From: Candidatus Poribacteria bacterium
GTDB taxonomy: Bacteria > Poribacteria > WGA-4E > WGA-3G
NCBI GenBank assembly: GCA_965232545.1
Contig: OZ246979.1
Coordinates: 5,734,077-5,798,076 of the forward strand
Length of the DNA: 64,000 nucleotides
Reading direction: 5' to 3'
Shown: one piece after another, positions 4,035 to 48,437 of the stretch
Layout: each line of letters starts with the position of its first letter
How positions within the stretch are numbered: position 1 is the first letter of the stretch
The notes under the pieces: generated by a model
Seen by the model: only the letters and a program-made list of their open reading frames with translations
The model's database searches: none
What the model was told of the DNA's origin: nothing
Position numbers and translations under genes: made by a program

Positions 4035-5003
4035 ATGCAAGACCTCCAGGACTTGATAACACAGCAACCCTACACGAATCTCATCACTCCCAAACGGATT
4101 CTGTTTGCGGTTCTCGGTGTGATCGTCTTAGCCTGCTTAGCGACAAGTTTTTATATGGTCGAAGCAGACGAAATCGCTGTCGTCCTGATGTTCGGTAAAT
4201 CTGTCCGACAAGCCGAACCGGGACTCCATTTCAAATTACCCCTCGGTATTGAGAGAGCCATTAGCGTGCCCGTCCGGAAAGTCTTCAAAGAGGAATTCGG
4301 TTTTCGGACGCTGAGAGCCGGGGTTCGGACGCAGTATGACACCCGCGATTATGCCGACGAGTCTTTATTACTAACCGGTGATCTAAGCATCGCCGATGTC
4401 GAGTGGGTGGTCCAGTATAAGGTTAAAGATCCGAAAAATTTTCTGTTTTCTGTCAGAAATCCAAGACAGGCTTTACGCGACCTCTCGGAATCCGTGATGA
4501 GCCGGATCATTGGCGACAGGACTGTCACTGAAGTGCTAACCGTCGGGCGTATTGAGATCGCCGCGGAGGTTGAAAAACATCTGCAAGAATTACTGGATCT
4601 CTACCAGACCGGATTAGATGTCGCAACGGTAACCTTGCAGGATGTGAATCCACCAGAAGCCGTGAAGTCCGCCTTTAACGCCGTCAATGAGGCGAAGCAG
4701 GAGAAAGAACGGTTAATCAACAATGCATGGCGCGATTACAACCAATCTGTCCCGAAAGCCAAAGGTGTGGCGATACAGCGGATTTCGGAAGCACAGGGTT
4801 ACGCGCTGAAACGCGTTAACGAGGCGCAAGGCGATGCAGATCGGTTCAAATCGATTCGCACGGAATATCAAAAAGCGAAAGAGGTTACCCGGCGCCGACT
4901 CTATCTCGAAGCGATGCGAGAGGTGTTACCGCAGGTGAAAGAGATTTATATCATTGACGGTAACGCCACCGCACCTATCCCACTTTTGCAACTCAAGGAA
5001 TAA
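4035..5003 (+). CDS. hflK: FtsH protease modulator HflK (SPFH/band-7)
   Basis: N-terminal transmembrane segment plus an SPFH domain, immediately followed by hflC. Confidence 0.85.
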   Translation: MQDLQDLITQQPYTNLITPKRILFAVLGVIVLACLATSFYMVEADEIAVVLMFGKSVRQAEPGLHFKLPLGIERAISVPVRKVFKEEFGFRTLRAGVRTQYDTRDYADESLLLTGDLSIADVEWVVQYKVKDPKNFLFSVRNPRQALRDLSESVMSRIIGDRTVTEVLTVGRIEIAAEVEKHLQELLDLYQTGLDVATVTLQDVNPPEAVKSAFNAVNEAKQEKERLINNAWRDYNQSVPKAKGVAIQRISEAQGYALKRVNEAQGDADRFKSIRTEYQKAKEVTRRRLYLEAMREVLPQVKEIYIIDGNATAPIPLLQLKE

Positions 5004-5017
5004 GAACCGTAAGGTAA

Positions 5018-5244
5018 GTTAGACGCGAAAACGAAGCCTGCAACAACGGCGCGGGGTTTTTGCTTGGGCGTTTCTTCAACTCGAACACAGAAAGCGTCAA
5101 ATCACACATCCCGTTACTTATCCGCAAGGTAAAATTAGGAATCGAGTTAGACGCGAAAACGAAGCCTGCAACAACGGCGCGGGCGACTCGAACACAGAAA
5201 GCGTCAAATCACACATCCCGTTACTTATCCGCAAGGTAAAATTA
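5018..5244 (+). repeat. Tandem duplicated leader module (about 100 nt x2) immediately upstream of the hflC start
   Basis: Unit 1 is 5018-5136, unit 2 is 5146-5244. Each ends in CCGCAAGGTAAAATTA. Unit 1 carries an extra 24-nt insert, GTTTTTGCTTGGGCGTTTCTTCAA. Same family as the 43113-43279 repeat. Confidence 0.8.
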
Positions 5245-5248
5245 AAAA

Positions 5249-6211
5249 ATGAAATCGAAAACAGTTCTTATACCCTTGATTGTTATTGCAGTTGTGGTGC
5301 TGCTAATTGTATCCGGTGTGTTCTATACCGTCCATGAAGGTGAACAGATCGTAATTACCGAATTCGGTCGCCCTATTGGTCAGCCCATTGTCACTGCGGG
5401 TTTGAAAATAAAAACACCCTTTATTCAGCAGGTACACCGCTTTGAAAAGCGCGTGCTTGAATGGGATGGATCCGCTAACCAGATCCCGACAAAAGACAAG
5501 CGATTCATCTGGTTGGATACCACAGCGCGGTGGCGTATTAAAGACGCTCTCAAATTCTATCAAGCACTCGGAACCGAACAGTTCGCACAATCTCGGTTGG
5601 ATGACATTATTGACTCCGCAGCGCGGGATTTAGTGACAGCACAACTCTTGATTGAAGTCGTGCGGGATTCAAATCGGGTGTTAAGTCTCGATCTGGAAGT
5701 CCTTGATGGTGAGGAGGGACAAACCGGTGAACCGTTGGAAGAGATTCAGATCGGTCGGGAACGGATTACACGTATGATCCTTGAGAAGGTCCAAGAGACC
5801 GTTCCACAATTCGGCATTGAACTCGTCGATGTTCAGATAAAACGGATTAACTATGTAGACGAGGTCCGCAAGAAAGTCTTTGACCAAATGATTTCGGAAC
5901 GGCAACGGATCTCTGAGAAATATAAATCCGAGGGGGCAGGCGAAGCCGCTGACATCATGGGACAGAAGCAGAAGGAGTTAGAGCGGATCCAATCTGAAGC
6001 GTATAAGGAAGCCGAGCAGCTTAAAGGTGACGCAGATGCGCAAGCCATTCAGATTTACGCCGAAGCACACGGTCAAGACCCAGAGTTTTACGCCTTTCTC
6101 CAGACGCTTGAAACCTATCGTCAGACGACCGGCGAGAGCACGAAACTCATCTTAACAACGGATAGCGACCTCTATCGGTATCTCAAAAGCAGTGAACCGC
6201 TCCGACGTTGA
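5249..6211 (+). CDS. hflC: FtsH protease modulator HflC
   Basis: N-terminal TM segment, band-7 domain, and the conserved hflK-hflC gene order. Confidence 0.85.
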   Translation: MKSKTVLIPLIVIAVVVLLIVSGVFYTVHEGEQIVITEFGRPIGQPIVTAGLKIKTPFIQQVHRFEKRVLEWDGSANQIPTKDKRFIWLDTTARWRIKDALKFYQALGTEQFAQSRLDDIIDSAARDLVTAQLLIEVVRDSNRVLSLDLEVLDGEEGQTGEPLEEIQIGRERITRMILEKVQETVPQFGIELVDVQIKRINYVDEVRKKVFDQMISERQRISEKYKSEGAGEAADIMGQKQKELERIQSEAYKEAEQLKGDADAQAIQIYAEAHGQDPEFYAFLQTLETYRQTTGESTKLILTTDSDLYRYLKSSEPLRR

Positions 6212-6334
6212 GCCTTGCTTCTATAACATGAGTACCGTATTTGTAGCGTAAACTGTTAGTTTGCGCCTGATGGGATACAATCAAAATAAGGTTTCAATAA
6301 ATGTTTCGGTAATTCCATGTTTCCCCCAGACCCG

Positions 6335-6397
6335 GGTAGGCGAGGTTTCTAACCTCGCCGGTGCAGAGTGTACAATTAATTCTAAAGTTTACCATAG
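6335..6397 (+). repeat. REP/terminator-like hairpin element (GGCGAGGTT-tct-AACCTCGCC plus CTCTTTAGAG...ATCTACCATAG tail)
   Basis: One of eight related copies (6335, 9475, 13487, 16104, 20636, 27169, 42949, 49228); five lie just downstream of plus-strand gene ends. Confidence 0.7.
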
Positions 6398-6743
6398 TTT
6401 GTAGCACCAGTCTTACTGTAGCGCAAACTGTTAGTTTGCGGCACCGGTCTGACGTGTGGACCAGACCAACATTTCAGTTGAGGTTTTCGGTTTAGCAAAA
6501 CTGTTCTCACTGTAGCGCAAACTGTTAGTTTGTAGCACCAGTCTTACTGTAGCGCAAACTGTTAGTTTGCGGCACCGGTTGGCACAAAAATTCGATATAA
6601 GCATACCAAAATCTGACGTGTGGACCAGACCAACATTTCAGTTGAGGTTTTCGGTTTAGCAAAACTGTTCTCACTGTAGCGCAAACTGTTAGTTTGTAGC
6701 ACCAGTCTCACTGTAGCGCAAACTGTTAGTTTGCGGCACGCGG
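6398..6743 (+). repeat. TGTAGC-box array; a 131-bp unit tandemly duplicated with a 164-bp period
   Basis: CTGACGTGTGGACCAGACC...TGTAGCGCAAACTGTTAGTTTGCGGCAC occurs at 6449-6579 and 6613-6743. At least eight TGTAGC boxes sit 17 to 20 nt apart. Each box contains the hairpin CAAACT-GTT-AGTTTG. Confidence 0.8.
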
Positions 6744-10260: not shown

Positions 10261-10336
10261 AGAGATTCATCGCTGACTGCTAATTGCTAATCGCTAACCG
10301 CTAATTGCTATTCTTCTGACCGCCGACTGCCGACCG
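10261..10336 (+). repeat. Heptamer direct-repeat array (CTRAYYG x10)
   Basis: ctgactg ctaattg ctaatcg ctaaccg ctaattg ... ctgaccg ccgactg ccgaccg ctgaccg, lying between the convergent 3' ends of yjjX and the Gfo/Idh/MocA gene. Confidence 0.7.
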
Positions 10337-10351
10337 CTGACCGCCATATAT

Positions 10352-11431
10352 TCAATCGATTTCCCATTCCTGTAAACCGAGCGGCACAGGCTCAGGACGT
10401 TCCGTCGTGCTTTCGATGACGACGTGCTCACCCGTTTCAGAAGATTTGTCGAAAGCGCACATCACCTCAAGCACATGATATGCCAACGCGCCGTTCGCAC
10501 GGTGCTTGCGTCCCGAAAGGATAACCGACGCCATATCAATGACCCCAATCATCCGAGCATTGTTCGGGAAAGGGATTTCCTCGGCTTCCCAATCACCCCC
10601 TGCCGGACACACATTCACGGGACCCCCGAAACCGTTCGGATCAGGCACCGTCATTGAGCCGGTTTCACCGTAGATTTCGATGCACGGAAGACTGTGCCGC
10701 CACATGTCGAAACTCATAATCATTGTGATGATCGCACCGTTCTGGAATTCGATTGAGCCGGTGAGGTGAGTTGTAATTTTGACAGGGATACGTAAACCGC
10801 GCACGGCTTGACTCGTCGCGACACGTTCTTCAAAGGCTTTCGTCGTAATCGCGGCAACGCGTTTGACGGGACCGAGAATATTGACGAGGGCAGTCACATA
10901 ATAAGGCCCCATATCCAGCATCGGTCCGCCGCCGAGGTCGTAGTAAAAGGCCGGATTTGGATGCCAACTTTCGTGTCCGTGTCCGCACATAAAAGCGGTG
11001 CCAGCGATAGGTTTCCCAATTTTCCCCGCGTCCAGTGTTTGCCGAGAAGTCTGGATACCCGCACCGAGGAAAGTATCGGGTGCCGATCCGACGCGTAATC
11101 CCTTTTCAGCGGCGGTATCAATGAGTTGTTTTCCGCTCTCGGTGTCCACGCCGAGCGGTTTTTCGCTATAGACGTGTTTACCGGCTTCCAAGACTTGTAA
11201 GCCGACTTCGACGTGTGCCCGCGGGATGGTGAGATTCACAACGAGTTCGATCTCATCGTCTGCGAGCAATTCATCGACGCTGCATGCGTGGGAGTTGTAT
11301 TTTTCGGCTTGCGCCTGTGCGGATTCCATTCGGAGGTCGGCACAGGCTTTGATTTCTAAAATGTCGGTTTTTCGTGCCCCTTCAAAGTAGGCACTGCTGA
11401 TGGTTCCACAACCAATAATTCCAATTTTCAT
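10352..11431 (-). CDS. Gfo/Idh/MocA family NAD(P)-dependent oxidoreductase
   Basis: N-terminal Rossmann motif MKIGIIGCGTIS and the typical C-terminal alpha/beta domain. Confidence 0.8.
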   Translation of the reverse strand: MKIGIIGCGTISSAYFEGARKTDILEIKACADLRMESAQAQAEKYNSHACSVDELLADDEIELVVNLTIPRAHVEVGLQVLEAGKHVYSEKPLGVDTESGKQLIDTAAEKGLRVGSAPDTFLGAGIQTSRQTLDAGKIGKPIAGTAFMCGHGHESWHPNPAFYYDLGGGPMLDMGPYYVTALVNILGPVKRVAAITTKAFEERVATSQAVRGLRIPVKITTHLTGSIEFQNGAIITMIMSFDMWRHSLPCIEIYGETGSMTVPDPNGFGGPVNVCPAGGDWEAEEIPFPNNARMIGVIDMASVILSGRKHRANGALAYHVLEVMCAFDKSSETGEHVVIESTTERPEPVPLGLQEWEID

Positions 11432-11460
11432 ATTTTTAACTATGTGCTCCTGGACTGCCT

Positions 11461-17348: not shown

Positions 17349-17451
17349 TTCTGCCAACTGCCTCTTGACGGCTATTCCTCTGACCGCCGACCGCCGACCG
17401 CTGACCGCCGACCGCTGATTGCTGACTGCTGACTGCTAACCGCTGATAGCC
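17349..17451 (+). repeat. Heptamer direct-repeat array (GCYGAYY, about 14 units)
   Basis: gctgacc gccgacc gccgacc gctgacc gccgacc gctgatt gctgact gctgact gctaacc gctgata, upstream of ThuA copy 1. Confidence 0.75.
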
Positions 17452-20552: not shown

Positions 20553-20747
20553 TTGCGGAATAATTCGGGCTATTCTGTGTGTGAGGTTGAATGAAATTTA
20601 AGTATTTAAAACGGTACTCCCGGTTTTCCCAGACTCGGTAGGGGCAGTGTTTTTGCTGGGGTGTTTCCCGCACCGGGCATTGTTAGAAGATTATCGAATT
20701 ATTTTTCAACCGTATCTAACCGCATCTGCTGGGTAAGGAGACGAAAC

Positions 20748-25722: not shown

Positions 25723-27159
25723 ATGAACATTGTCTGTATCTGTTTAGACACGTTTCGTGCGGACATCATCGGTGAAGGCAAGAAGTATAGCCACGTACAA
25801 ACACCGAACCTCGATGCCTTGGCATCGGAGTCCGTCCGTTTCACACGCGCCTTTGGTGAAGGACAACCGACGCTTCAGATCCGTCGCGGCAATTTTACCG
25901 GGATGCGGAGTTTTCCGTGGAAGTATAATTTTGACCGACGCGGACATTGGCACCATGCCCCAGGTTGGCATAAGATTCCACCCGAACAGGATACAATCGC
26001 TGAAGTCTTGCTTGAACGCGGGTATCTCACTGCTCTGATTGCGGATACGTATCACATGTTCAAGCCGACGATGAATTTCTCGCGCGGGTTCGCACATTTC
26101 GATTTCATTCGCGGACAGGAATCGGATAACTGGCACAGTGGGGATCCGAGGTTGGTTGAAGACCAACTCCGAAAACACGTCCGTGAACCGCTCAACTGGC
26201 AACGGCATGCTGGACTCGTCAACTACCTCTTGTCGCAACGGCACCGCCAATCGGAGGATGACTATAGTTGCGCACGTGTCTTCCGCGCCGCCGCGGATTG
26301 GCTCCAAGACAATCACACCGTCGGTCCGTTTTTCTTATGGGTCGATAGTTTCGACCCACATGAGCCGTGGGATCCACCGAAGTCCTATGCTGATCTCTAT
26401 TTCTCTGACTATTCGGGTAAGGATTTCATTACGCCGGGCAACGCAAACGAAGGCGATGGACCTACAGAAGATGAACTCCGTCGGATTGAGGCACTCTATC
26501 TCGGTGAAGTGACGTTTGTTGATAAATGGGTCGGCGTGCTACTTGACAAAATAGAGCAGTTAAACATCCGAGACGAGACGCTGATTGTTTTAATGTCCGA
26601 CCACGGCACACAACTCCGCGATCACGGAAGTTTCGGAAAGGGACCAAATAAGTTGCATCCGTTTAATACGCAACTGAACCTGATGATGCGGCACCCAGAC
26701 GGACCACATGATAAAGACATTTCGGCGTTTGTGCAGAATCACGATCTGATGCCCACACTCCTAAATATGCTTGACATTCCGTGCGGTTGGACCGATGGTG
26801 AGGATATGTGGCAGCTCGTTAAACAGGAAAAAGCACTCCTCCGCGAACGGATTATCACTGGTTGGGCAGGGTTTATCACGGGGAATGCGCGCGGCCGCGT
26901 CAGTGTCCGCGATAATCACTGGAACTTCTGCACTTCAGTCGGCTACAAAGCTGGGAACGGCGATGAACTCTTTGATGTCCGAAATGATCCCGAAGAAAAA
27001 GTGAACATTGCGAGTGACCATCCAGCGATTATCGCAGAACGACGACGGGACATCGAGGCATTGATCGGACAACCCTTACCCGGACATTTCATTGAGGTCT
27101 GCGATCCAGAGCAGGCACCCATGACGCGATGGCTTGAAAAGAAATTGGCGGAGATGTAG
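25723..27159 (+). CDS. Sulfatase-like hydrolase (alkaline-phosphatase superfamily); no canonical C/S-x-P-x-R formylglycine motif
   Basis: CICLDTFRAD, SDHG and sulfatase-fold blocks. The expected CxPxR position reads GEGQPTLQIRRGNFTG. Confidence 0.6.
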   Translation: MNIVCICLDTFRADIIGEGKKYSHVQTPNLDALASESVRFTRAFGEGQPTLQIRRGNFTGMRSFPWKYNFDRRGHWHHAPGWHKIPPEQDTIAEVLLERGYLTALIADTYHMFKPTMNFSRGFAHFDFIRGQESDNWHSGDPRLVEDQLRKHVREPLNWQRHAGLVNYLLSQRHRQSEDDYSCARVFRAAADWLQDNHTVGPFFLWVDSFDPHEPWDPPKSYADLYFSDYSGKDFITPGNANEGDGPTEDELRRIEALYLGEVTFVDKWVGVLLDKIEQLNIRDETLIVLMSDHGTQLRDHGSFGKGPNKLHPFNTQLNLMMRHPDGPHDKDISAFVQNHDLMPTLLNMLDIPCGWTDGEDMWQLVKQEKALLRERIITGWAGFITGNARGRVSVRDNHWNFCTSVGYKAGNGDELFDVRNDPEEKVNIASDHPAIIAERRRDIEALIGQPLPGHFIEVCDPEQAPMTRWLEKKLAEM

Positions 27160-27168
27160 GAAGCAACA

Positions 27169-27263
27169 ACCTCGCCTCTTTCGTCCCCGCTGGCGAGGTG
27201 TTTTTGATAGGGTGTTTCTCTCGCCTCTTTAGAGCGTCCAAATAATTCTAATATCTACCATAG
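27169..27263 (+). repeat. REP/terminator-like hairpin element, expanded copy with a 21-nt box inserted in the loop
   Basis: GGCGAGG-TGTTTTTGATAGGGTGTTTCT-CTCGCC, then CTCTTTAGAGCGTCCAAATAATTCTAATATCTACCATAG. Confidence 0.65.
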
Positions 27264-42948: not shown

Positions 42949-43046
42949 GTTTCGCTGGCGAGGTTTCTAACCTCGCCTCTTTGTAAGTAAGTGCGGGCTT
43001 TACTATATTTGTTTCGCTGGTAAGGTTCTAACTACCTTGATACTCC
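42949..43046 (+). repeat. REP/terminator-like hairpin element, two copies in tandem (second degenerate)
   Basis: GTTTCGCTGGCGAGGTTTCTAACCTCGCCTCTTTG ... GTTTCGCTGGTAAGGTTCTAACTACCTT. Confidence 0.6.
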
Positions 43047-43112
43047 AGAAAATCTGTTGACAAAATCTGCCTTAAGTATTAAGATTAAGTGTTAAATAAG
43101 AAGCCAAACAGT

Positions 43113-43279
43113 AGCCTGCAACAGCGGCGCAGGCGGATATGAGGAACGCGCGAGATAGACATAACGGACGTGCTTCCTCCGCAAGGTATAATTAGAAAGC
43201 CTGCAACAGCGGCGCAGGCGGATATGAGGAACGCGCGAGATAGACATAACGGACGTGCTTCCTCCGCAAGGTATAATTA
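43113..43279 (+). repeat. Tandem duplicated leader module (82 nt x2) ending in CCGCAAGGTATAATTA, immediately upstream of the 43301 gene
   Basis: Unit 1 is 43113-43194, unit 2 is 43198-43279. Contains the palindrome GCCTGC-aacagcggc-GCAGGC. TATAAT at 43272-43277, then AAAAACA, RBS GAGGAGG, and the ATG at 43301. Confidence 0.8.
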
Positions 43280-43300
43280 AAAAACAGAGGAGGATCAAAC

Positions 43301-43690
43301 ATGGCAGCTGAGAGCGGAACGAGGAAGCGGCACATCGTTAAGGTCTTGACGGTTCTCTTAATCCTCACGATATGCCTCGCCGTTTTGCAATGGTTCATCA
43401 TCAAAGAATTATTTAGTTTCGGCGCGGATATGGTGAAAGACGCGTTAATTCGACAAGCCCCTGACGGAGTGGACCGCTATGACATTGAGGCGACCTTTGA
43501 TCGGGTCAAATCCGCCGGGATGCAGTTGCCATTCAGTTTCCTTACCGGAAGAATCAGTCTCCGTAAAATCAGAGCCGTTGGTAGATATGCGATAGAAGCA
43601 AACGCTGATGAATCTTGGGACGCCGATGAGATTAACACGCTCCTGAGGATGATGGACGCTTCTGTCGGAGTTAAAGGAGGAACCGAGTAA
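43301..43690 (+). CDS. Hypothetical membrane-anchored protein
   Basis: 129 aa, single N-terminal TM segment, strong RBS. Confidence 0.5.
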   Translation: MAAESGTRKRHIVKVLTVLLILTICLAVLQWFIIKELFSFGADMVKDALIRQAPDGVDRYDIEATFDRVKSAGMQLPFSFLTGRISLRKIRAVGRYAIEANADESWDADEINTLLRMMDASVGVKGGTE

Positions 43691-47057: not shown

Positions 47058-47117
47058 AAACTGCTCCTATGTTTTTAGACCAACGCACCCAGTGCAGGAT
47101 AGTCTAATATTCTGTTT

Positions 47118-47316
47118 GAGGGTTTTCGGTTAGATAATGATGGTTCGATAATCCATCCTAATACTGCTATCGTATCATTCTTCACTCTTCAAAAGTATAA
47201 CAAGCGTAAGAAAATAGTCAAGAAAAAATTAGAGGGTTTTCGGTTAGATAATGATGGTTCGGTAATCCATTCTAATGTTGGTATCGCATCATTGTTCACT
47301 CTTCAAAAGTATAACA
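47118..47316 (+). repeat. Tandem duplicated leader module (about 85 nt x2, 114-bp period) upstream of the PfkB-kinase gene
   Basis: GAGGGTTTTCGGTTAGATAATGATGGTTCG...CACTCTTCAAAAGTATAACA occurs at 47118-47202 and 47232-47316, about 85% identical. Confidence 0.75.
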
Positions 47317-47339: not shown

Positions 47340-48437
47340 ATGGTTATCCACATTGCAGGGTATGTGAAGCACTGGAGAAACACCTTGATTAGCGAAGCGC
47401 GCCTGAAGACAATTCTCAATCAATTTCAAAATCAACGTATCCTCGTTGTTGGCGATTTTTACCTTGATGCCTACTGGTACATAGACAAAACCCGTTCGAC
47501 ACTATCGTTGGAAACACCGTGGCATACCAATCCCGTCGTTGCGCAGCACTATAGTCCGGGTGCCGCTGGAACTGTCACAAATAACCTGAAGGCGTTAGGC
47601 GTAGGTACGGTCTACACGTTAGGGGTTATCGGTGAAGACGGATTTGGTGGAACGTTGCTGGATTGTCTGCAGACGAACGGGTGCCTGACGGATTTTATGA
47701 TACAGGTGCCGGAATGGGTAACCCCTACGTATCTTAAACCGATGCATCGTGGATATGAGGGCGTGGAGACGGAGGGACCGCGGTTCGATATTGAGAACCA
47801 GTCAGCGATGGATGAGGCGATTGAAACTGATGTTATTGATGCCCTTCAAAATTGTATGCCGCTTGTTGACGGTATCATTGTCGGTGATCAGATGCCAATT
47901 GAGAACTTAGGTGTTGTCACCAACGGGGTGAGAGACGAACTATGCGAGTTGGGAGCGGCATTTCCTGACAAAATCTTTTTCGCTGATGCCCGCACGCGGA
48001 TTGGTAAGTATCGAAACGTTATCATTAAACCGAACCGGTTTGAGGCGAAACGCGCTGTTCAGCCAGAGTGGAATGGACAGCACGTTAGCATTGAAGAGGC
48101 AAGACAATGTGCTGTCGCACTCGCGGAACAAACCCAACGGACGGTATACGTCACCCTCGGTGAAAATGGGATTCTCATCTACCATAGAGGTGAGTTTACA
48201 CATATCCCCGGTGTTTCGATCGATGATGAGATCGATCCTGTTGGGGCGGGTGACAGTGTTTCGGCGGGGCTTGTCGCAACGCTCTGTAGCCTACACGCTT
48301 CACAAGGGGAGGCAACTGTTGAAGCGGCTTATGTCGGCAATTTGGTGGCTTCAATTACCGTTACCAAGATCGGGACCACCGGGACCGCATCGCCAACAGA
48401 AATTCTACAACGCCATCGGGACCACGTGGATCTATGA
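47340..48437 (+). CDS. PfkB-family carbohydrate kinase (RfaE kinase-domain-like)
   Basis: ILVVGDFYLDAYWY N-terminal motif and the DPVGAGDSVSAG PfkB signature. Start taken as the ATG at 47340. Confidence 0.7.
   Translation: MVIHIAGYVKHWRNTLISEARLKTILNQFQNQRILVVGDFYLDAYWYIDKTRSTLSLETPWHTNPVVAQHYSPGAAGTVTNNLKALGVGTVYTLGVIGEDGFGGTLLDCLQTNGCLTDFMIQVPEWVTPTYLKPMHRGYEGVETEGPRFDIENQSAMDEAIETDVIDALQNCMPLVDGIIVGDQMPIENLGVVTNGVRDELCELGAAFPDKIFFADARTRIGKYRNVIIKPNRFEAKRAVQPEWNGQHVSIEEARQCAVALAEQTQRTVYVTLGENGILIYHRGEFTHIPGVSIDDEIDPVGAGDSVSAGLVATLCSLHASQGEATVEAAYVGNLVASITVTKIGTTGTASPTEILQRHRDHVDL

What the first reader, a model, noticed from the sequence alone, without database searches (positions are those of the whole stretch)
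5018..5244. Tandemly duplicated leader modules abutting start codons (hflC leader, same family as 43113-43279)
Two modules of about 100 nt sit directly between hflK and hflC. Each begins GTTAGACGCGAAAACGAAGCCTGCAACAACGGCGCGGG and ends CCGTTACTTATCCGCAAGGTAAAATTA, with only AAAAA separating the second copy from the hflC ATG. A diverged member of the same family (GCCTGCAACAGCGGCGCAGGCGG ... CCGCAAGGTATAATTA) is duplicated in the same way upstream of the 43301 gene. In both places the module end supplies a TAWAAT hexamer about 7 to 25 nt from the start codon. This looks like a portable promoter/leader cassette, or possibly a cis-regulatory RNA, that has been duplicated in situ.
Basis: seen in the sequence. 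Interest (0 to 1): 0.6.

Follow-up and report, generated by a model that had tools for sequence, protein, structure and literature searches.

The report
Portable start-codon leader cassette in Poribacteria
The two repeats in front of hflC are copies of a roughly 95-base cassette found across the sponge-symbiont phylum Poribacteria, which sits directly in front of the start codons of many unrelated genes, has replaced the normal ribosome-binding site here, and varies in copy number between close relatives.

Summary
Two near-identical modules lie between hflK and hflC, and two more lie upstream of the gene at 43301.

They belong to a large Poribacteria-specific family. A complete module runs 81-82 nt from head to tail. 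It has a 5' extension CAAAACCGTA and a head hairpin whose stem shows compensatory changes. A variable interior follows, then an invariant CCGCAAGG box and an A/T-only spacer. The start codon usually lies exactly 12 nt after the box.

Orthologous loci show that the modules are derived insertions. Most relatives have a 24-nt hflK-hflC spacer with a canonical AAGGAG site. Others carry one module of a different subtype, and only the window carries two. The 43301 locus carries 0, a partial copy, 2, 2 or 4 copies.

No Rfam family matches. Terminal inverted repeats and a conserved ORF were looked for by eye only and none was seen.

The cassette most likely supplies the downstream gene's initiation context. 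Either it is a co-transcribed leader, which I favour slightly, or its tail (A at -11 and T at -7, both invariant) is a -10 element for leaderless transcripts. No tool here can place transcription starts.

The closest known kind is the Neisseria REP2 and Borrelia IR-A class of repeats. I file this as a new member of that kind, of moderately high interest.

The parts
5007..5021 (+). Solo tail-like box CCGTAAGGTAAGTTA, 3 nt after the hflK stop codon (TAA 5001-5003)
   Evidence: Read directly. The same box, AACCGTAAGGTAAAATTAGA, directly follows the hflK stop in every module-bearing orthologue (L119, L120, L126). It is absent from the empty alleles.
5022..5137 (+). Module m1. Its pieces are: 5' extension 5022-5035; head hairpin HP1 5036-5055; inserted mini-repeat GTTTTTGCTTGGGCGTTTC(TTCA) 5056-5078; interior 5079-5121; tail CCGCAAGGTAAAATTA 5122-5137
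   Evidence: The covariance model scores the head at 31.8 bits, E 2e-8. The mini-repeat is a separate dispersed motif.
5138..5149 (+). Linker GGAATCG followed by AGTTA (which repeats 5017-5021), between the two modules
   Evidence: Because of this junction the pair is not a simple head-to-tail duplication.
5150..5244 (+). Module m2. Its pieces are: 5' extension 5150-5163; HP1 5164-5184 (GCCTGC / GCGGGC, 9-nt loop); interior 5185-5228; tail 5229-5244 (box CCGCAAGG 5229-5236; hexamer TAAAAT 5237-5242)
   Evidence: The covariance model scores the head at 35.8 bits, E 8e-10. The hairpin forms in the minimum-free-energy fold and the tail is unpaired.
5245..5251 (+). AAAA followed by the hflC start codon ATG (5249-5251). 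The box-to-ATG distance is 12 nt
   Evidence: The 12-nt spacing is the family norm, seen in 31 of 44 copies.
43057..43085 (+). Canonical sigma-70-type promoter TTGACA-17-TAAGAT upstream of the second module pair
   Evidence: 10 of 12 consensus matches. It is conserved in all five orthologous loci, with or without modules.
43102..43197 (+). Module 1 of the 43301 locus. Its pieces are: 5' extension GCCAAACAGTA; HP1 43114-43134; interior hairpin GAGGAAC...GTGCTTCCTC; tail 43179-43194
   Evidence: 43 bits, E 2.6e-12.
43198..43282 (+). Module 2 of the 43301 locus (HP1 43199-43219; tail 43264-43279; hexamer TATAAT 43272-43277)
   Evidence: 85-nt period, 98% matches; 35.1 bits.
43287..43303 (+). Retained native Shine-Dalgarno site GAGGAGG (43287-43293) and the ATG at 43301
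   Evidence: The same site is retained in L205, decayed in L204 and deleted in L206, where the last tail abuts the ATG at 12 nt.
11432..11460 (-). Hairpin-less relative of the short-form cassette: AGGCAGTCCAGGAGCACATAGTTAAAAAT followed by the ATG of gene 10352-11431
   Evidence: Compare the short-form copies in L068, L047 and L013.

Best explanation
**What it is.** The hflC repeats are a two-copy local array of a Poribacteria-wide family of start-site cassettes about 95 nt long and fixed in orientation.

**What is shown.**
- The cassette is a derived insertion into the hflK-hflC operon junction.
- The ancestral 24-nt spacer, with its canonical AAGGAG ribosome-binding site, has been lost.
- Arrays expand and contract between close relatives.

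**How it most likely works (inferred).**
- The cassette is co-transcribed with the gene, from the operon promoter here and from the canonical promoter at 43057 at the other locus.
- It then serves as a replacement 5' leader.
- A sense-strand hairpin (HP1) comes first. Its loop sequence is conserved and its stem covaries.
- A more variable second hairpin, closed by GCGG/CCGC, follows.
- These two hairpins precede an unstructured initiation region: CCGCAAGG, then 12 A/U nucleotides, then AUG.
- This region presents the start codon to the ribosome without a conventional Shine-Dalgarno spacing.
- The hairpins would stabilise the leader or act as a handle for a regulator.
- The same tail may additionally act as a -10 element (see the first rival).
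For: **Family membership.**
- In those loci nearly every head is followed by the tail and then a start codon.
- Non-Poribacteria hits lack tails.

**Fixed architecture.**
- 41 of 55 complete copies measure 81-82 nt.
- The box is 12 nt from the start codon in 31 of 44 copies, and within 10-14 nt in all.
- The box, A at -11, T at -7, and A at -4 and -3 are invariant in 34 distinct sequences.

**HP1 is a real sense-strand hairpin.**
- 81% of cells are paired.
- 51 cells carry changes on both sides, against 13.1 +/- 2.8 in shuffles (0 of 500 shuffles reach the observed value). Slid controls give 2-18.
- 18 sequences have a U-G pair that would be a mismatch on the other strand.
- More than nine different perfectly complementary 5-bp stems carry the same loop.

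**The modules lie in transcribed positions.**
- One pair is operon-internal.
- The other lies between a conserved canonical promoter and the native SD.

**The modules are derived insertions.** Empty alleles with a canonical SD are found in L121, L122, L124, L125, L127, L128 and more distant relatives, and in L207 and L208.

**The native SD becomes dispensable after insertion.** It is kept in the window and L205, decayed in L204, and deleted in L206 so that the tail lands exactly 12 nt from the ATG.

**RNA folding.**
- The tail and start codon are predicted unpaired.
- Interiors fold better than shuffles on average (mean z -0.81; 18 of 41 below -1).
- In L024 the downstream trpB reading frame is open through the module, with an in-frame ATG and GGAG inside it. 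I read this from the sequence. It implies that this module copy is in mRNA.

**Known parallel.** The architecture matches Neisseria REP2 and Borrelia IR-A: no terminal inverted repeats, 5' stem-loops, then a ribosome-binding site and ATG fused to ORFs (PMC3184786).
Against: - No transcript data exist, so co-transcription is inferred from position only.
- The purine motif is too far from the start codon for this genome's usual SD. AAGG ends 12 nt before the ATG, and AGGAG ends 14-15 nt before it in the short form. Ordinary genes peak at 6-8 nt.
- What is constant between the long and short forms is the distance from the A/T hexamer to the ATG, not the distance from the purine motif to the ATG. 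That fits a -10 element better.
- Some heads lie back to back only 25-60 nt apart in divergent intergenic regions, which leaves little room for upstream promoters.
- About a quarter of copies, including m1, carry a T-run directly after HP1. If this terminates transcription it would be awkward inside a leader.
- RNAalifold supports only HP1 as a family-wide structure.
- Whole-module folds are not significantly more stable than shuffles (z -0.5 to -1.4, and +0.96 for m1).
Confidence: 0.45

Rival explanations
1. Promoter cassette for leaderless mRNA. The tail hexamer (xAxxxT, usually TAAAAT or TATAAT) is a -10 element placed at -12 to -7 relative to the A of the ATG. RNA polymerase therefore starts at or next to the start codon. 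The upstream hairpin, with its T-run in some copies, insulates the gene from upstream transcription. In tandem arrays the tail of one copy would fire a transcript that begins at the next copy's hairpin.
For: - A at -11 and T at -7 are invariant in 34 of 34 distinct start-adjacent copies, while positions -12, -10 and -8 vary. This resembles the sigma-70 -10 conservation profile.
- T lies at -7 from the ATG in 38 of 44 copies, counted by eye from the spacer list.
- The hexamer-to-ATG distance of 6 nt is shared by long and short forms, although the GG motif shifts by 4-5 nt.
- The spacing of the purine motif falls outside the genome's SD mode.
- The start codon is ATG in 41 of 44 cassette genes, against 74 of 93 SD genes.
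- Where the tail is 23 nt from the ATG (43301 locus), a full SD follows, as expected for a short leadered transcript.
- Divergent head-to-head pairs leave only 25-60 nt between modules.
- A TANNNT motif adjacent to ORFs is an experimentally validated expression mode in Deinococcus-Thermus (PMC12340547; PMC4007540).
Against: - There is no -35 hexamer and no TG extension. The two-hexamer scan finds no promoter inside the modules.
- Position -12 is T in only 11 of 34 copies.
- Much of the T-7 invariance follows trivially from a TT doublet that slides by one position.
- Non-module Poribacteria genes show no peak of -10-like hexamers at the leaderless offset.
- This reading does not by itself explain a sense-strand hairpin with a conserved loop lying upstream of the transcription start.
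- The canonical promoter upstream of the 43301 modules is retained in every allele.
- The T-run motif is an independent dispersed mini-repeat and is not always preceded by a hairpin, so its role as a terminator is unproven.
Confidence: 0.3
2. Selfish or neutral dispersed repeat. The cassette spreads by an unknown copy mechanism and by unequal recombination. It persists in front of genes only because it happens to carry a usable start context. It has no adaptive role in expression.
For: - Orthologous sites show presence/absence and subtype turnover among relatives with 85-95% protein identity.
- Other mini-elements are nested inside modules: the T-run repeat, and a roughly 45-nt hairpin inside the HP1 loop of L126.
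- Some copies are not next to any start codon, or are followed by a separate canonical promoter, for example L113 position 2302 and L067 position 5539.
- Downstream genes have no functional theme.
Against: - Random insertion cannot place 31 of 44 tails exactly 12 nt from a start codon.
- Orientation is fixed relative to the gene.
- Compensatory changes preserve HP1 across many diverged copies, and the box is invariant. Both indicate purifying selection on each copy rather than recent copying alone.
- Whole-module identity between non-orthologous loci of different genomes reaches 83-86%.
- I saw no terminal inverted repeats.
- No copies were found in viral contigs.
Confidence: 0.15
3. Regulon handle. 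The conserved HP1 loop (GCAACAACGGCGC, or GTAAYGNARTGGA in the second head class) is the binding site of one trans-acting RNA-binding protein or small RNA. The spread of the cassette has therefore placed many genes under common post-transcriptional control. Short-form copies look like CsrA-type leaders, with GGA in a hairpin loop and a second GGA in an AGGAG motif 13 nt downstream.
For: - The loop sequence is conserved while the stems vary freely: more than nine stem versions carry one loop.
- This is the pattern of protein-recognised hairpins.
- Two GGA motifs lie at CsrA-compatible spacing in the short form. CsrA's binding preferences are from my own knowledge.
Against: - The commonest head class has no GGA in its loop.
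- No candidate protein was identified.
- Downstream genes are functionally heterogeneous.
- No known RNA family matches.
Confidence: 0.1

Closest known systems
Neisseria REP2 repeats (CREN) and Borrelia plasmid IR-A/IR-B repeats
   Same: These are dispersed intergenic repeats of about 120-180 bp without terminal inverted repeats. They lie immediately upstream of unrelated ORFs in a fixed orientation. They have internal stem-loops near the 5' end, followed by a ribosome-binding region and the ATG (PMC3184786). The Poribacteria cassette has the same layout: hairpin(s), then an initiation region fused to the start codon.
   Different: - I could not test sequence relationship, because no REP2 or IR-A sequence was available to the tools.
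- REP2 carries a recognisable -35/-10 promoter at its 5' end. This cassette does not.
- REP2 has 23-26 copies per genome. Local densities here are one module per roughly 5-16 kb, which suggests hundreds per genome.
- This family spans a whole phylum, forms copy-number-variable tandem arrays, and has a short form.
Putative mobile promoters (Matus-Garcia, Nijveen and van Passel 2012)
   Same: They are homologous upstream segments of 50-100 nt shared by non-homologous genes within and between genomes (PMC3488235). That is the pattern seen here.
   Different: - That category is purely operational (at least 80% identity). It has no defined structure or phasing.
- The largest family reported had 93 members.
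- This family has a covarying hairpin and an exact 12-nt phasing to the start codon.
Mycobacterial interspersed repetitive units (MIRU-VNTR)
   Same: They are units of 40-100 bp in intercistronic regions of operons. They share the orientation of the genes and are transcribed in the polycistronic mRNA. Filled and empty orthologous sites exist, and tandem copy number varies between strains (PMC3184786). The hflK-hflC array (0/1/2 copies) and the 43301 array (0 to 4 copies) behave the same way.
   Different: - MIRUs contain small ORFs whose ends overlap the flanking genes (translational coupling). I found no conserved ORF in these modules.
- MIRUs have about 40-50 loci per genome and no conserved-loop hairpin.
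Correia elements and other promoter-bearing MITEs
   Same: They are abundant small repeats, often 5' of genes. They are co-transcribed, carry functional outward promoters, and show filled and empty sites between strains (PMC3184786).
   Different: - Correia elements have terminal inverted repeats and TA target duplications, and insert in either orientation.
- I saw no terminal inverted repeats in this cassette, and it keeps one orientation relative to the gene.
-10 motif adjacent to ORFs of leaderless genes (Deinococcus-Thermus, Actinobacteria)
   Same: An xAxxxT hexamer lies 6 nt upstream of the start codon, with A-11 and T-7 invariant. The TANNNT motif adjacent to ORFs is validated as a -10 region (PMC12340547).
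   Different: - In those phyla the motif is a genome-wide property of single-copy promoters and is not embedded in a 95-nt repeat.
- Non-cassette Poribacteria genes show no such signal, and most use canonical SDs.
REP/REPIN elements mobilised by RAYT transposases
   Same: A short GC-rich hairpin is preceded by GTAG: long-form copies read ..CGTA-GCCTGC.... Copies are abundant and intergenic. The GTAG signature of REPs is from my own knowledge.
   Different: - Short-form copies have AACC instead of GTAG.
- The hairpin is only the first fifth of a longer oriented unit.
- Inverted doublets are not the rule.
- No RAYT gene was looked for or found.

Membership tests
REP2 / IR-A class (repeats carrying expression signals fused to start codons) | Dispersed intergenic repeat upstream of many unrelated ORFs in a fixed orientation | tested here: met
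   In the sampled Poribacteria loci 41 of 252 genes carry it (these loci were chosen for containing a head, so the fraction is biased upward).
REP2 / IR-A class (repeats carrying expression signals fused to start codons) | The 3' end of the repeat supplies the initiation region directly in front of the ATG | tested here: met
   The box is 12 nt from the start codon in 31 of 44 copies. The native SD is lost at hflC and in L206.
REP2 / IR-A class (repeats carrying expression signals fused to start codons) | Internal stem-loops near the 5' end | tested here: met
   HP1 is supported by covariation. A second hairpin closed by GCGG/CCGC is seen in many single-sequence folds but not in the consensus fold.
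REP2 / IR-A class (repeats carrying expression signals fused to start codons) | A recognisable -35/-10 promoter within the repeat | tested here: inconclusive
   No two-hexamer promoter lies inside the modules. There is no positional peak of -10-like hexamers upstream of heads. The tail itself is -10-like.
REP2 / IR-A class (repeats carrying expression signals fused to start codons) | No terminal inverted repeats | tested here: met
   I compared the ends in the alignment. The left end (CAAAACCGTAGCC) and the reverse complement of the right end (TAATTTTACCTTGCGG) are unrelated.
MITE (for example Correia) | Terminal inverted repeats, target-site duplication, and insertion in either orientation | tested here: not met
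   No terminal inverted repeats are visible and orientation is fixed relative to the gene. A tail-like direct repeat often precedes the head, but it is not a clean target duplication.
MIRU-VNTR | Tandem copy-number variation at orthologous intercistronic sites | tested here: met
   0/1/2 copies at hflK-hflC. 0/partial/2/2/4 copies at the 43301 locus.
MIRU-VNTR | A small ORF within the unit that overlaps the stop and start codons of the flanking genes | tested here: not met
   No ATG occurs in the hflC modules. ORFs in other subtypes are not conserved (read by eye).
Leaderless-gene -10 motif | A TANNNT-type hexamer ending 6-7 nt before the start codon | tested here: met
   A-11 and T-7 are present in 34 of 34 copies with 12-nt spacing.
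Leaderless-gene -10 motif | Transcription starts at the start codon | not testable with these tools
   No transcriptome or 5'-end data are available.
Leaderless-gene -10 motif | The motif is a general feature of SD-less genes in the genome | tested here: not met
   95 genes without an SD or cassette show no peak at offset 12-13. The start-site calls used are crude.
Known structured RNA families (Rfam 15, including riboswitches and leaders) | A match to a curated covariance model | tested here: not met
   No hit in the window at gathering score. Only chance hits in 4950-5300 at E up to 10. In 18 Poribacteria loci the only hit at gathering score is a tRNA. Only a chance hit in 3 loci at E up to 1.
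Intrinsic terminator | A GC-rich stem with a loop of 3-8 nt followed by a T-run on the sense strand | tested here: inconclusive
   The scan flags no terminator at 4900-5300; the HP1 loop is 9 nt. It does flag the 43301-locus heads, but only on the minus strand. Module m1 has a T-run that can pair with the upstream A-run. The T-run motif also occurs without hairpins.
REP/REPIN | A GTAG-flanked palindrome, inverted doublets, and an associated RAYT gene | tested here: inconclusive
   GTA-G precedes long-form stems but not short forms. Divergent pairs exist, but each member is tied to its own gene. No RAYT search was made.

The most novel reading that the evidence does not exclude
A self-propagating cassette that docks onto start codons has replaced the native initiation signals of a sizeable fraction of genes across the whole phylum (roughly 5-15% in the sampled loci). 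Its conserved hairpin loop would be the handle of one global regulator, so that a regulon has been built by the spread of a repeat. Rapid expansion and contraction of tandem arrays would then act as a heritable dial on expression in uncultivated sponge symbionts.
Probability: 0.15. Interest if true: 0.85.

Novelty: new member of a known kind. Interest (0 to 1): 0.62.

Why it matters
- Poribacteria are uncultivated sponge symbionts, and nothing is known about how their genes are expressed.
- One repeat family sits at a fixed distance from the start codon of many unrelated genes, including housekeeping genes such as clpB, gatB, argC, dxs, pth and nuoG. In at least two loci it has demonstrably displaced a canonical ribosome-binding site.
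- It is therefore a strong handle on this phylum's transcription and translation initiation.
- It gives a testable case of regulatory rewiring by the spread of non-coding DNA, on a scale that appears far larger than the Neisseria REP2 precedent.
- Practically, gene callers should expect these starts. ATG lies 12 nt after CCGCAAGG, and some reading frames run through the repeat.
- The copy-number-variable arrays could serve as strain markers in sponge metagenomes.

Tried and rejected
1. **Known RNA family or riboswitch.** Four Rfam searches found nothing relevant. A remembered 'Poribacteria-1' motif could not be found in the paper library.
2. **A structure spanning the whole module.** RNAalifold supports only HP1 and a trivial CC-GCAA-GG mini-hairpin. 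Whole-module fold z-scores are unremarkable.
3. **A conserved peptide in the modules.** None is conserved across subtypes (by inspection).
4. **MITE or IS end.** I saw no terminal inverted repeats, and orientation is fixed.
5. **Spread by phage.** Three hits in IMG/VR are chance matches: two GC-rich stretches that match the head but have no tail, and one AT-rich stretch that matches the tail but has no head.
6. **A promoter at a fixed position upstream of the hairpin.** -10-like hexamers show no positional peak there.
7. **A canonical two-hexamer promoter inside the modules.** None was found.
8. **A general leaderless habit in Poribacteria.** No signal was found.
9. **The 23-nt insert of m1 as a standard terminator tail.** It is an independent dispersed mini-repeat, often without a preceding hairpin. 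The terminator reading therefore stays unproven.
10. **The 'membrane protein' theme.** Rejected.
11. **Exact look-up of the window's HflC.** The protein is not in the collection.
12. **Copy number per genome.** This could not be measured.
Full report
**1. The observation**

Between the hflK-like ORF (4035-5003, Band_7) and the hflC-like ORF (5249-6211, Band_7) lie two modules.
- They are 100% identical over a 39-nt block and a 59-nt block (families D9 and D14).
- They differ only by a 23-nt segment (5056-5078) that m2 lacks, and they are joined by a 7-nt linker.

A second pair, an 85-nt unit with 2.0 copies and 98% matches, lies at 43113-43283. It is upstream of a 129-aa ORF with no Pfam domain.

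The two loci share a head, GCCTGCAACARCGGCGCRGG, and a tail, CCGCAAGGTAWAATTA. Each occurs four times in the window, against 0 and 0.7 expected by chance. The roughly 45-nt interiors differ.

**2. It is one instance of a large, phylum-specific family**

The window comes from a Candidatus Poribacteria genome. The best HflC relatives are 80-93% identical, and those that carry names are Poribacteria.

- 32 loci are Poribacteria MAGs. One further locus is an unnamed bacterium with a complete module.
- In Poribacteria loci nearly every head is followed, 45-110 nt later, by the tail and then a start codon of a different gene each time.
- The other 85 loci come from scattered GC-rich taxa and have no tail. 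About 280 chance matches are expected in 596 Gb (my arithmetic).

Neither Rfam nor the paper library knows the element, and I found no copies in IMG/VR.

**3. Anatomy**

Of 55 complete copies, 41 measure 81-82 nt from head to tail. From 5' to 3' the parts are:
- a conserved extension, CAAAACC(G)TA;
- the hairpin HP1;
- GCGG, then a variable interior that falls into subfamilies. The hflC type and the 43301 type each have relatives at non-orthologous loci in other genomes, with 83-86% identity over the whole module;
- the invariant box CCGCAAGG;
- a spacer made only of A and T, then the start codon.

A second head class, GCCCGTAACGTAGTGGAGGGC, also exists.

There is also a short form: GAAAACC, a 5-bp stem, GTAATGAAATGGA, the complementary stem, GYCCAGGAGCR, ATAAAT, TAAAAA, ATG.

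*HP1 is a real hairpin.* On 62 distinct heads:
- 81% of cells pair;
- 51 cells carry changes on both sides, against 13.1 +/- 2.8 in shuffles (0 of 500 reach the observed value), and slid controls give 2-18;
- short-form copies show at least nine different perfectly complementary stems around one loop sequence;
- eighteen sequences have a U-G pair that would be a C-A mismatch on the other strand. The hairpin therefore belongs to the sense strand.

*The rest of the module is less structured.*
- RNAalifold supports nothing else family-wide.
- Individual interiors tend to fold into a second hairpin closed by GCGG/CCGC (mean z -0.81).
- In RNA folds of the window copies, HP1 forms and the tail, A-run and AUG stay unpaired.

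**4. Phasing to the start codon**

In 44 start-adjacent copies the box ends 12 nt before the start codon in 31 cases, and 10-14 nt before it in all. Among 34 distinct sequences with the 12-nt spacing, the box, A-11, T-7, A-4 and A-3 are invariant.

Ordinary genes in these genomes use a canonical AAGGAG site ending 6-8 nt before the start codon. The cassette's purine motif is therefore unusually distant: 12 nt in the long form and 14-15 nt in the short form.

What the long and short forms share is the hexamer xAxxxT followed by 6 nt and the ATG.

**5. The modules are derived insertions and the arrays are unstable**

*hflK-hflC.*
- L121, L122, L124, L125, L127, L128 and all more distant relatives have a 24-30-nt spacer with AAAGGAG 8 nt before the ATG.
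- L119, L120 and L126 have one module of a different subtype: the second head class with another interior. In L126 two further small elements are nested inside it.
- Only the window has two modules.
- All filled alleles share a solo tail-like box (AACCGTAAGGTAAAATTAGA) directly after the hflK stop codon. None retains any trace of the native SD spacer.

*43301 locus.*
- All alleles keep the canonical promoter TTGACA-17-TAAGAT (or a close variant of the -10 hexamer).
- L207 and L208 have no module and a GAGGTG SD.
- The window and L205 have two modules, with different duplication-unit boundaries, inserted between the promoter and a retained SD.
- L204 has a headless partial module and a decayed SD.
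- L206 has four modules. Its SD is deleted, so the last tail sits exactly 12 nt from the ATG.

Tandem or partial duplications recur at other loci too: L001, L025, L052, L053, L056, L062, L067, L077 and L102.

**6. What it does**

Two things are shown. The cassette occupies transcribed positions directly in front of ORFs, and it can take over from a native SD. The mechanism is inferred.

I slightly favour a co-transcribed replacement leader (0.45). The reasons are:
- its position downstream of native promoters;
- the sense-strand hairpin with a conserved loop;
- the unstructured A/U-rich initiation region with invariant A-3 and A-4;
- the parallel with Neisseria REP2 and Borrelia IR-A (PMC3184786);
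- one copy (L024) in which the trpB reading frame appears to start inside the module.

The main rival (0.30) is that the tail is a -10 element for leaderless transcripts. The reasons are:
- A-11 and T-7 are invariant;
- the hexamer-to-ATG distance is conserved across both forms;
- the SD spacing is anomalous;
- ATG is enriched as the start codon;
- divergent head-to-head pairs lie only 25-60 nt apart;
- there is a validated precedent in Deinococcus-Thermus (PMC12340547).

Against that rival:
- there is no -35 hexamer and no TG extension;
- T at -12 is poorly conserved;
- other Poribacteria genes show no leaderless signature;
- it does not explain the hairpin.

The two readings are not exclusive. 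In arrays, and where a solo tail precedes a module as at hflC, an upstream tail could fire a transcript whose 5' end is the next hairpin.

Two further readings get 0.15 and 0.10. One is a purely selfish repeat. The other is a regulon handle recognised through the HP1 loop.

How the cassette is copied to new genes is unknown. I saw no terminal inverted repeats and did not search for a transposase. The left and right borders share AACCG(T/C)A(A)G. The solo tail looks like a hybrid of the two, which hints at recombination between the ends. I did not test that idea.

**7. Comparison and novelty**

- By architecture this belongs with the REP2 / IR-A kind of repeat, whose expression signals are fused to start codons.
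- By behaviour at operon junctions it resembles MIRU-VNTRs.
- Operationally it is a 'putative mobile promoter' family (PMC3488235).
- It fails the MITE, Rfam and MIRU-ORF tests (see the membership table).

I file it as a new member of a known kind. What is unusual is its apparent abundance, which I could not measure per genome. Local density is one module per roughly 5-16 kb, and 41 of 252 genes in the admittedly biased sample of loci carry it. Also unusual are its phylum-wide spread, its exact phasing to the start codon, its conserved-loop hairpin and its array dynamics.

**8. Limits**

- All functional statements are inferences from sequence.
- Gene starts were called with simple rules.
- The sampled loci were selected for containing a head.
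- The per-genome copy number and the propagation mechanism remain open.

Noticed in passing
window 5056-5074, 20649-20667, 27200-27218; L094, L020, L018 and others: A separate dispersed mini-repeat, GTTTTTGCTKGGGYGTTTC(CCC). It has 38 copies in the sampled Poribacteria DNA. Eleven lie directly after the cassette hairpin and the rest lie elsewhere. It occurs in either orientation and sometimes as 2-3 tandem units. In the window one copy follows a strong hairpin at the 3' end of gene 25723-27159. It may be a terminator T-tract or an element of its own.
   Followed up: partly
L013, L025, L047, L068, L094, L097, L102, L110; window 11432-11460 (-): A short-form cassette of about 60 nt: GAAAACC, a 5-bp stem, GTAATGAAATGGA, the complementary stem, GYCCAGGAGCR, ATAAATTAAAAA, ATG. 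More than nine different complementary stems are seen. The window has a hairpin-less version in front of the GFO_IDH_MocA oxidoreductase gene 10352-11431.
   Followed up: partly
L024 (module at minus-strand 7611, upstream of trpB); L056 minus-strand 7488; L085 minus-strand 490; L064 4287: In L024 the trpB reading frame is open through the module. An in-frame ATG preceded by GGAG lies inside the interior, which would give a 16-aa module-encoded N-terminal extension. In three other copies ATT or ATC stands where the ATG is expected, in front of ORFs that look like signal peptides.
   Followed up: no
L126 about 1340-1420 (hflC locus); also L018 minus-strand 6010 and the L094 3835 flank: A roughly 45-nt hairpin element (..ATTATGCCTTAAATGGCATAAT..) is nested inside the loop of the cassette hairpin. 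This is a second kind of small element that inserts into modules.
   Followed up: no
L032 7204, L068 minus-strand 5312, L084 minus-strand 7449: A tail variant in which the box is roughly inverted: AACGCCTTGCGMAWAATTAAAAA instead of CCGCAAGG followed by the A/T-rich spacer. The A/T hexamer and A-run are unchanged.
   Followed up: no
window 3909, 6240-6740, 7308, 29241, 29806: A palindromic repeat, TTTGTAGCGCAAACTGTTAGTTTGCG, with 10 copies in the window. Six are clustered just downstream of hflC, within a 164-nt tandem duplication (6448-6575 and 6612-6739). The hflKC locus is therefore flanked by two different unstable repeat families.
   Followed up: no
window 6339, 9472, 13488, 42953, 49225: A terminator-like hairpin family, GGCGAGGTTTC(C)TAACCTCGCC followed by TCTTT, after gene ends. 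One copy (42957-42977) lies just upstream of the 43301-locus promoter.
   Followed up: no
window 3756, 10278-10345, 17380-17446, 27276: Arrays of the heptamer CTGACCG/CTGATTG in intergenic regions.
   Followed up: no
window 47115-47316: An unrelated 88-nt tandem duplication (91% identity, 114-nt spacing) directly upstream of an ORF starting near 47340. It ends in ..GTATAACATTAAAAAATACGG and is followed by a TATAAT.
   Followed up: no
L084 551/596, L085 6389/6414, L094 7300/7361, L047 570/621 and 4084/4155, L116 5613/5732: Cassettes occur back to back in divergent intergenic regions, with their hairpins only 25-120 nt apart. At least one cassette of each pair runs outward to a start codon. This leaves very little non-cassette DNA for promoters.
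   Followed up: partly
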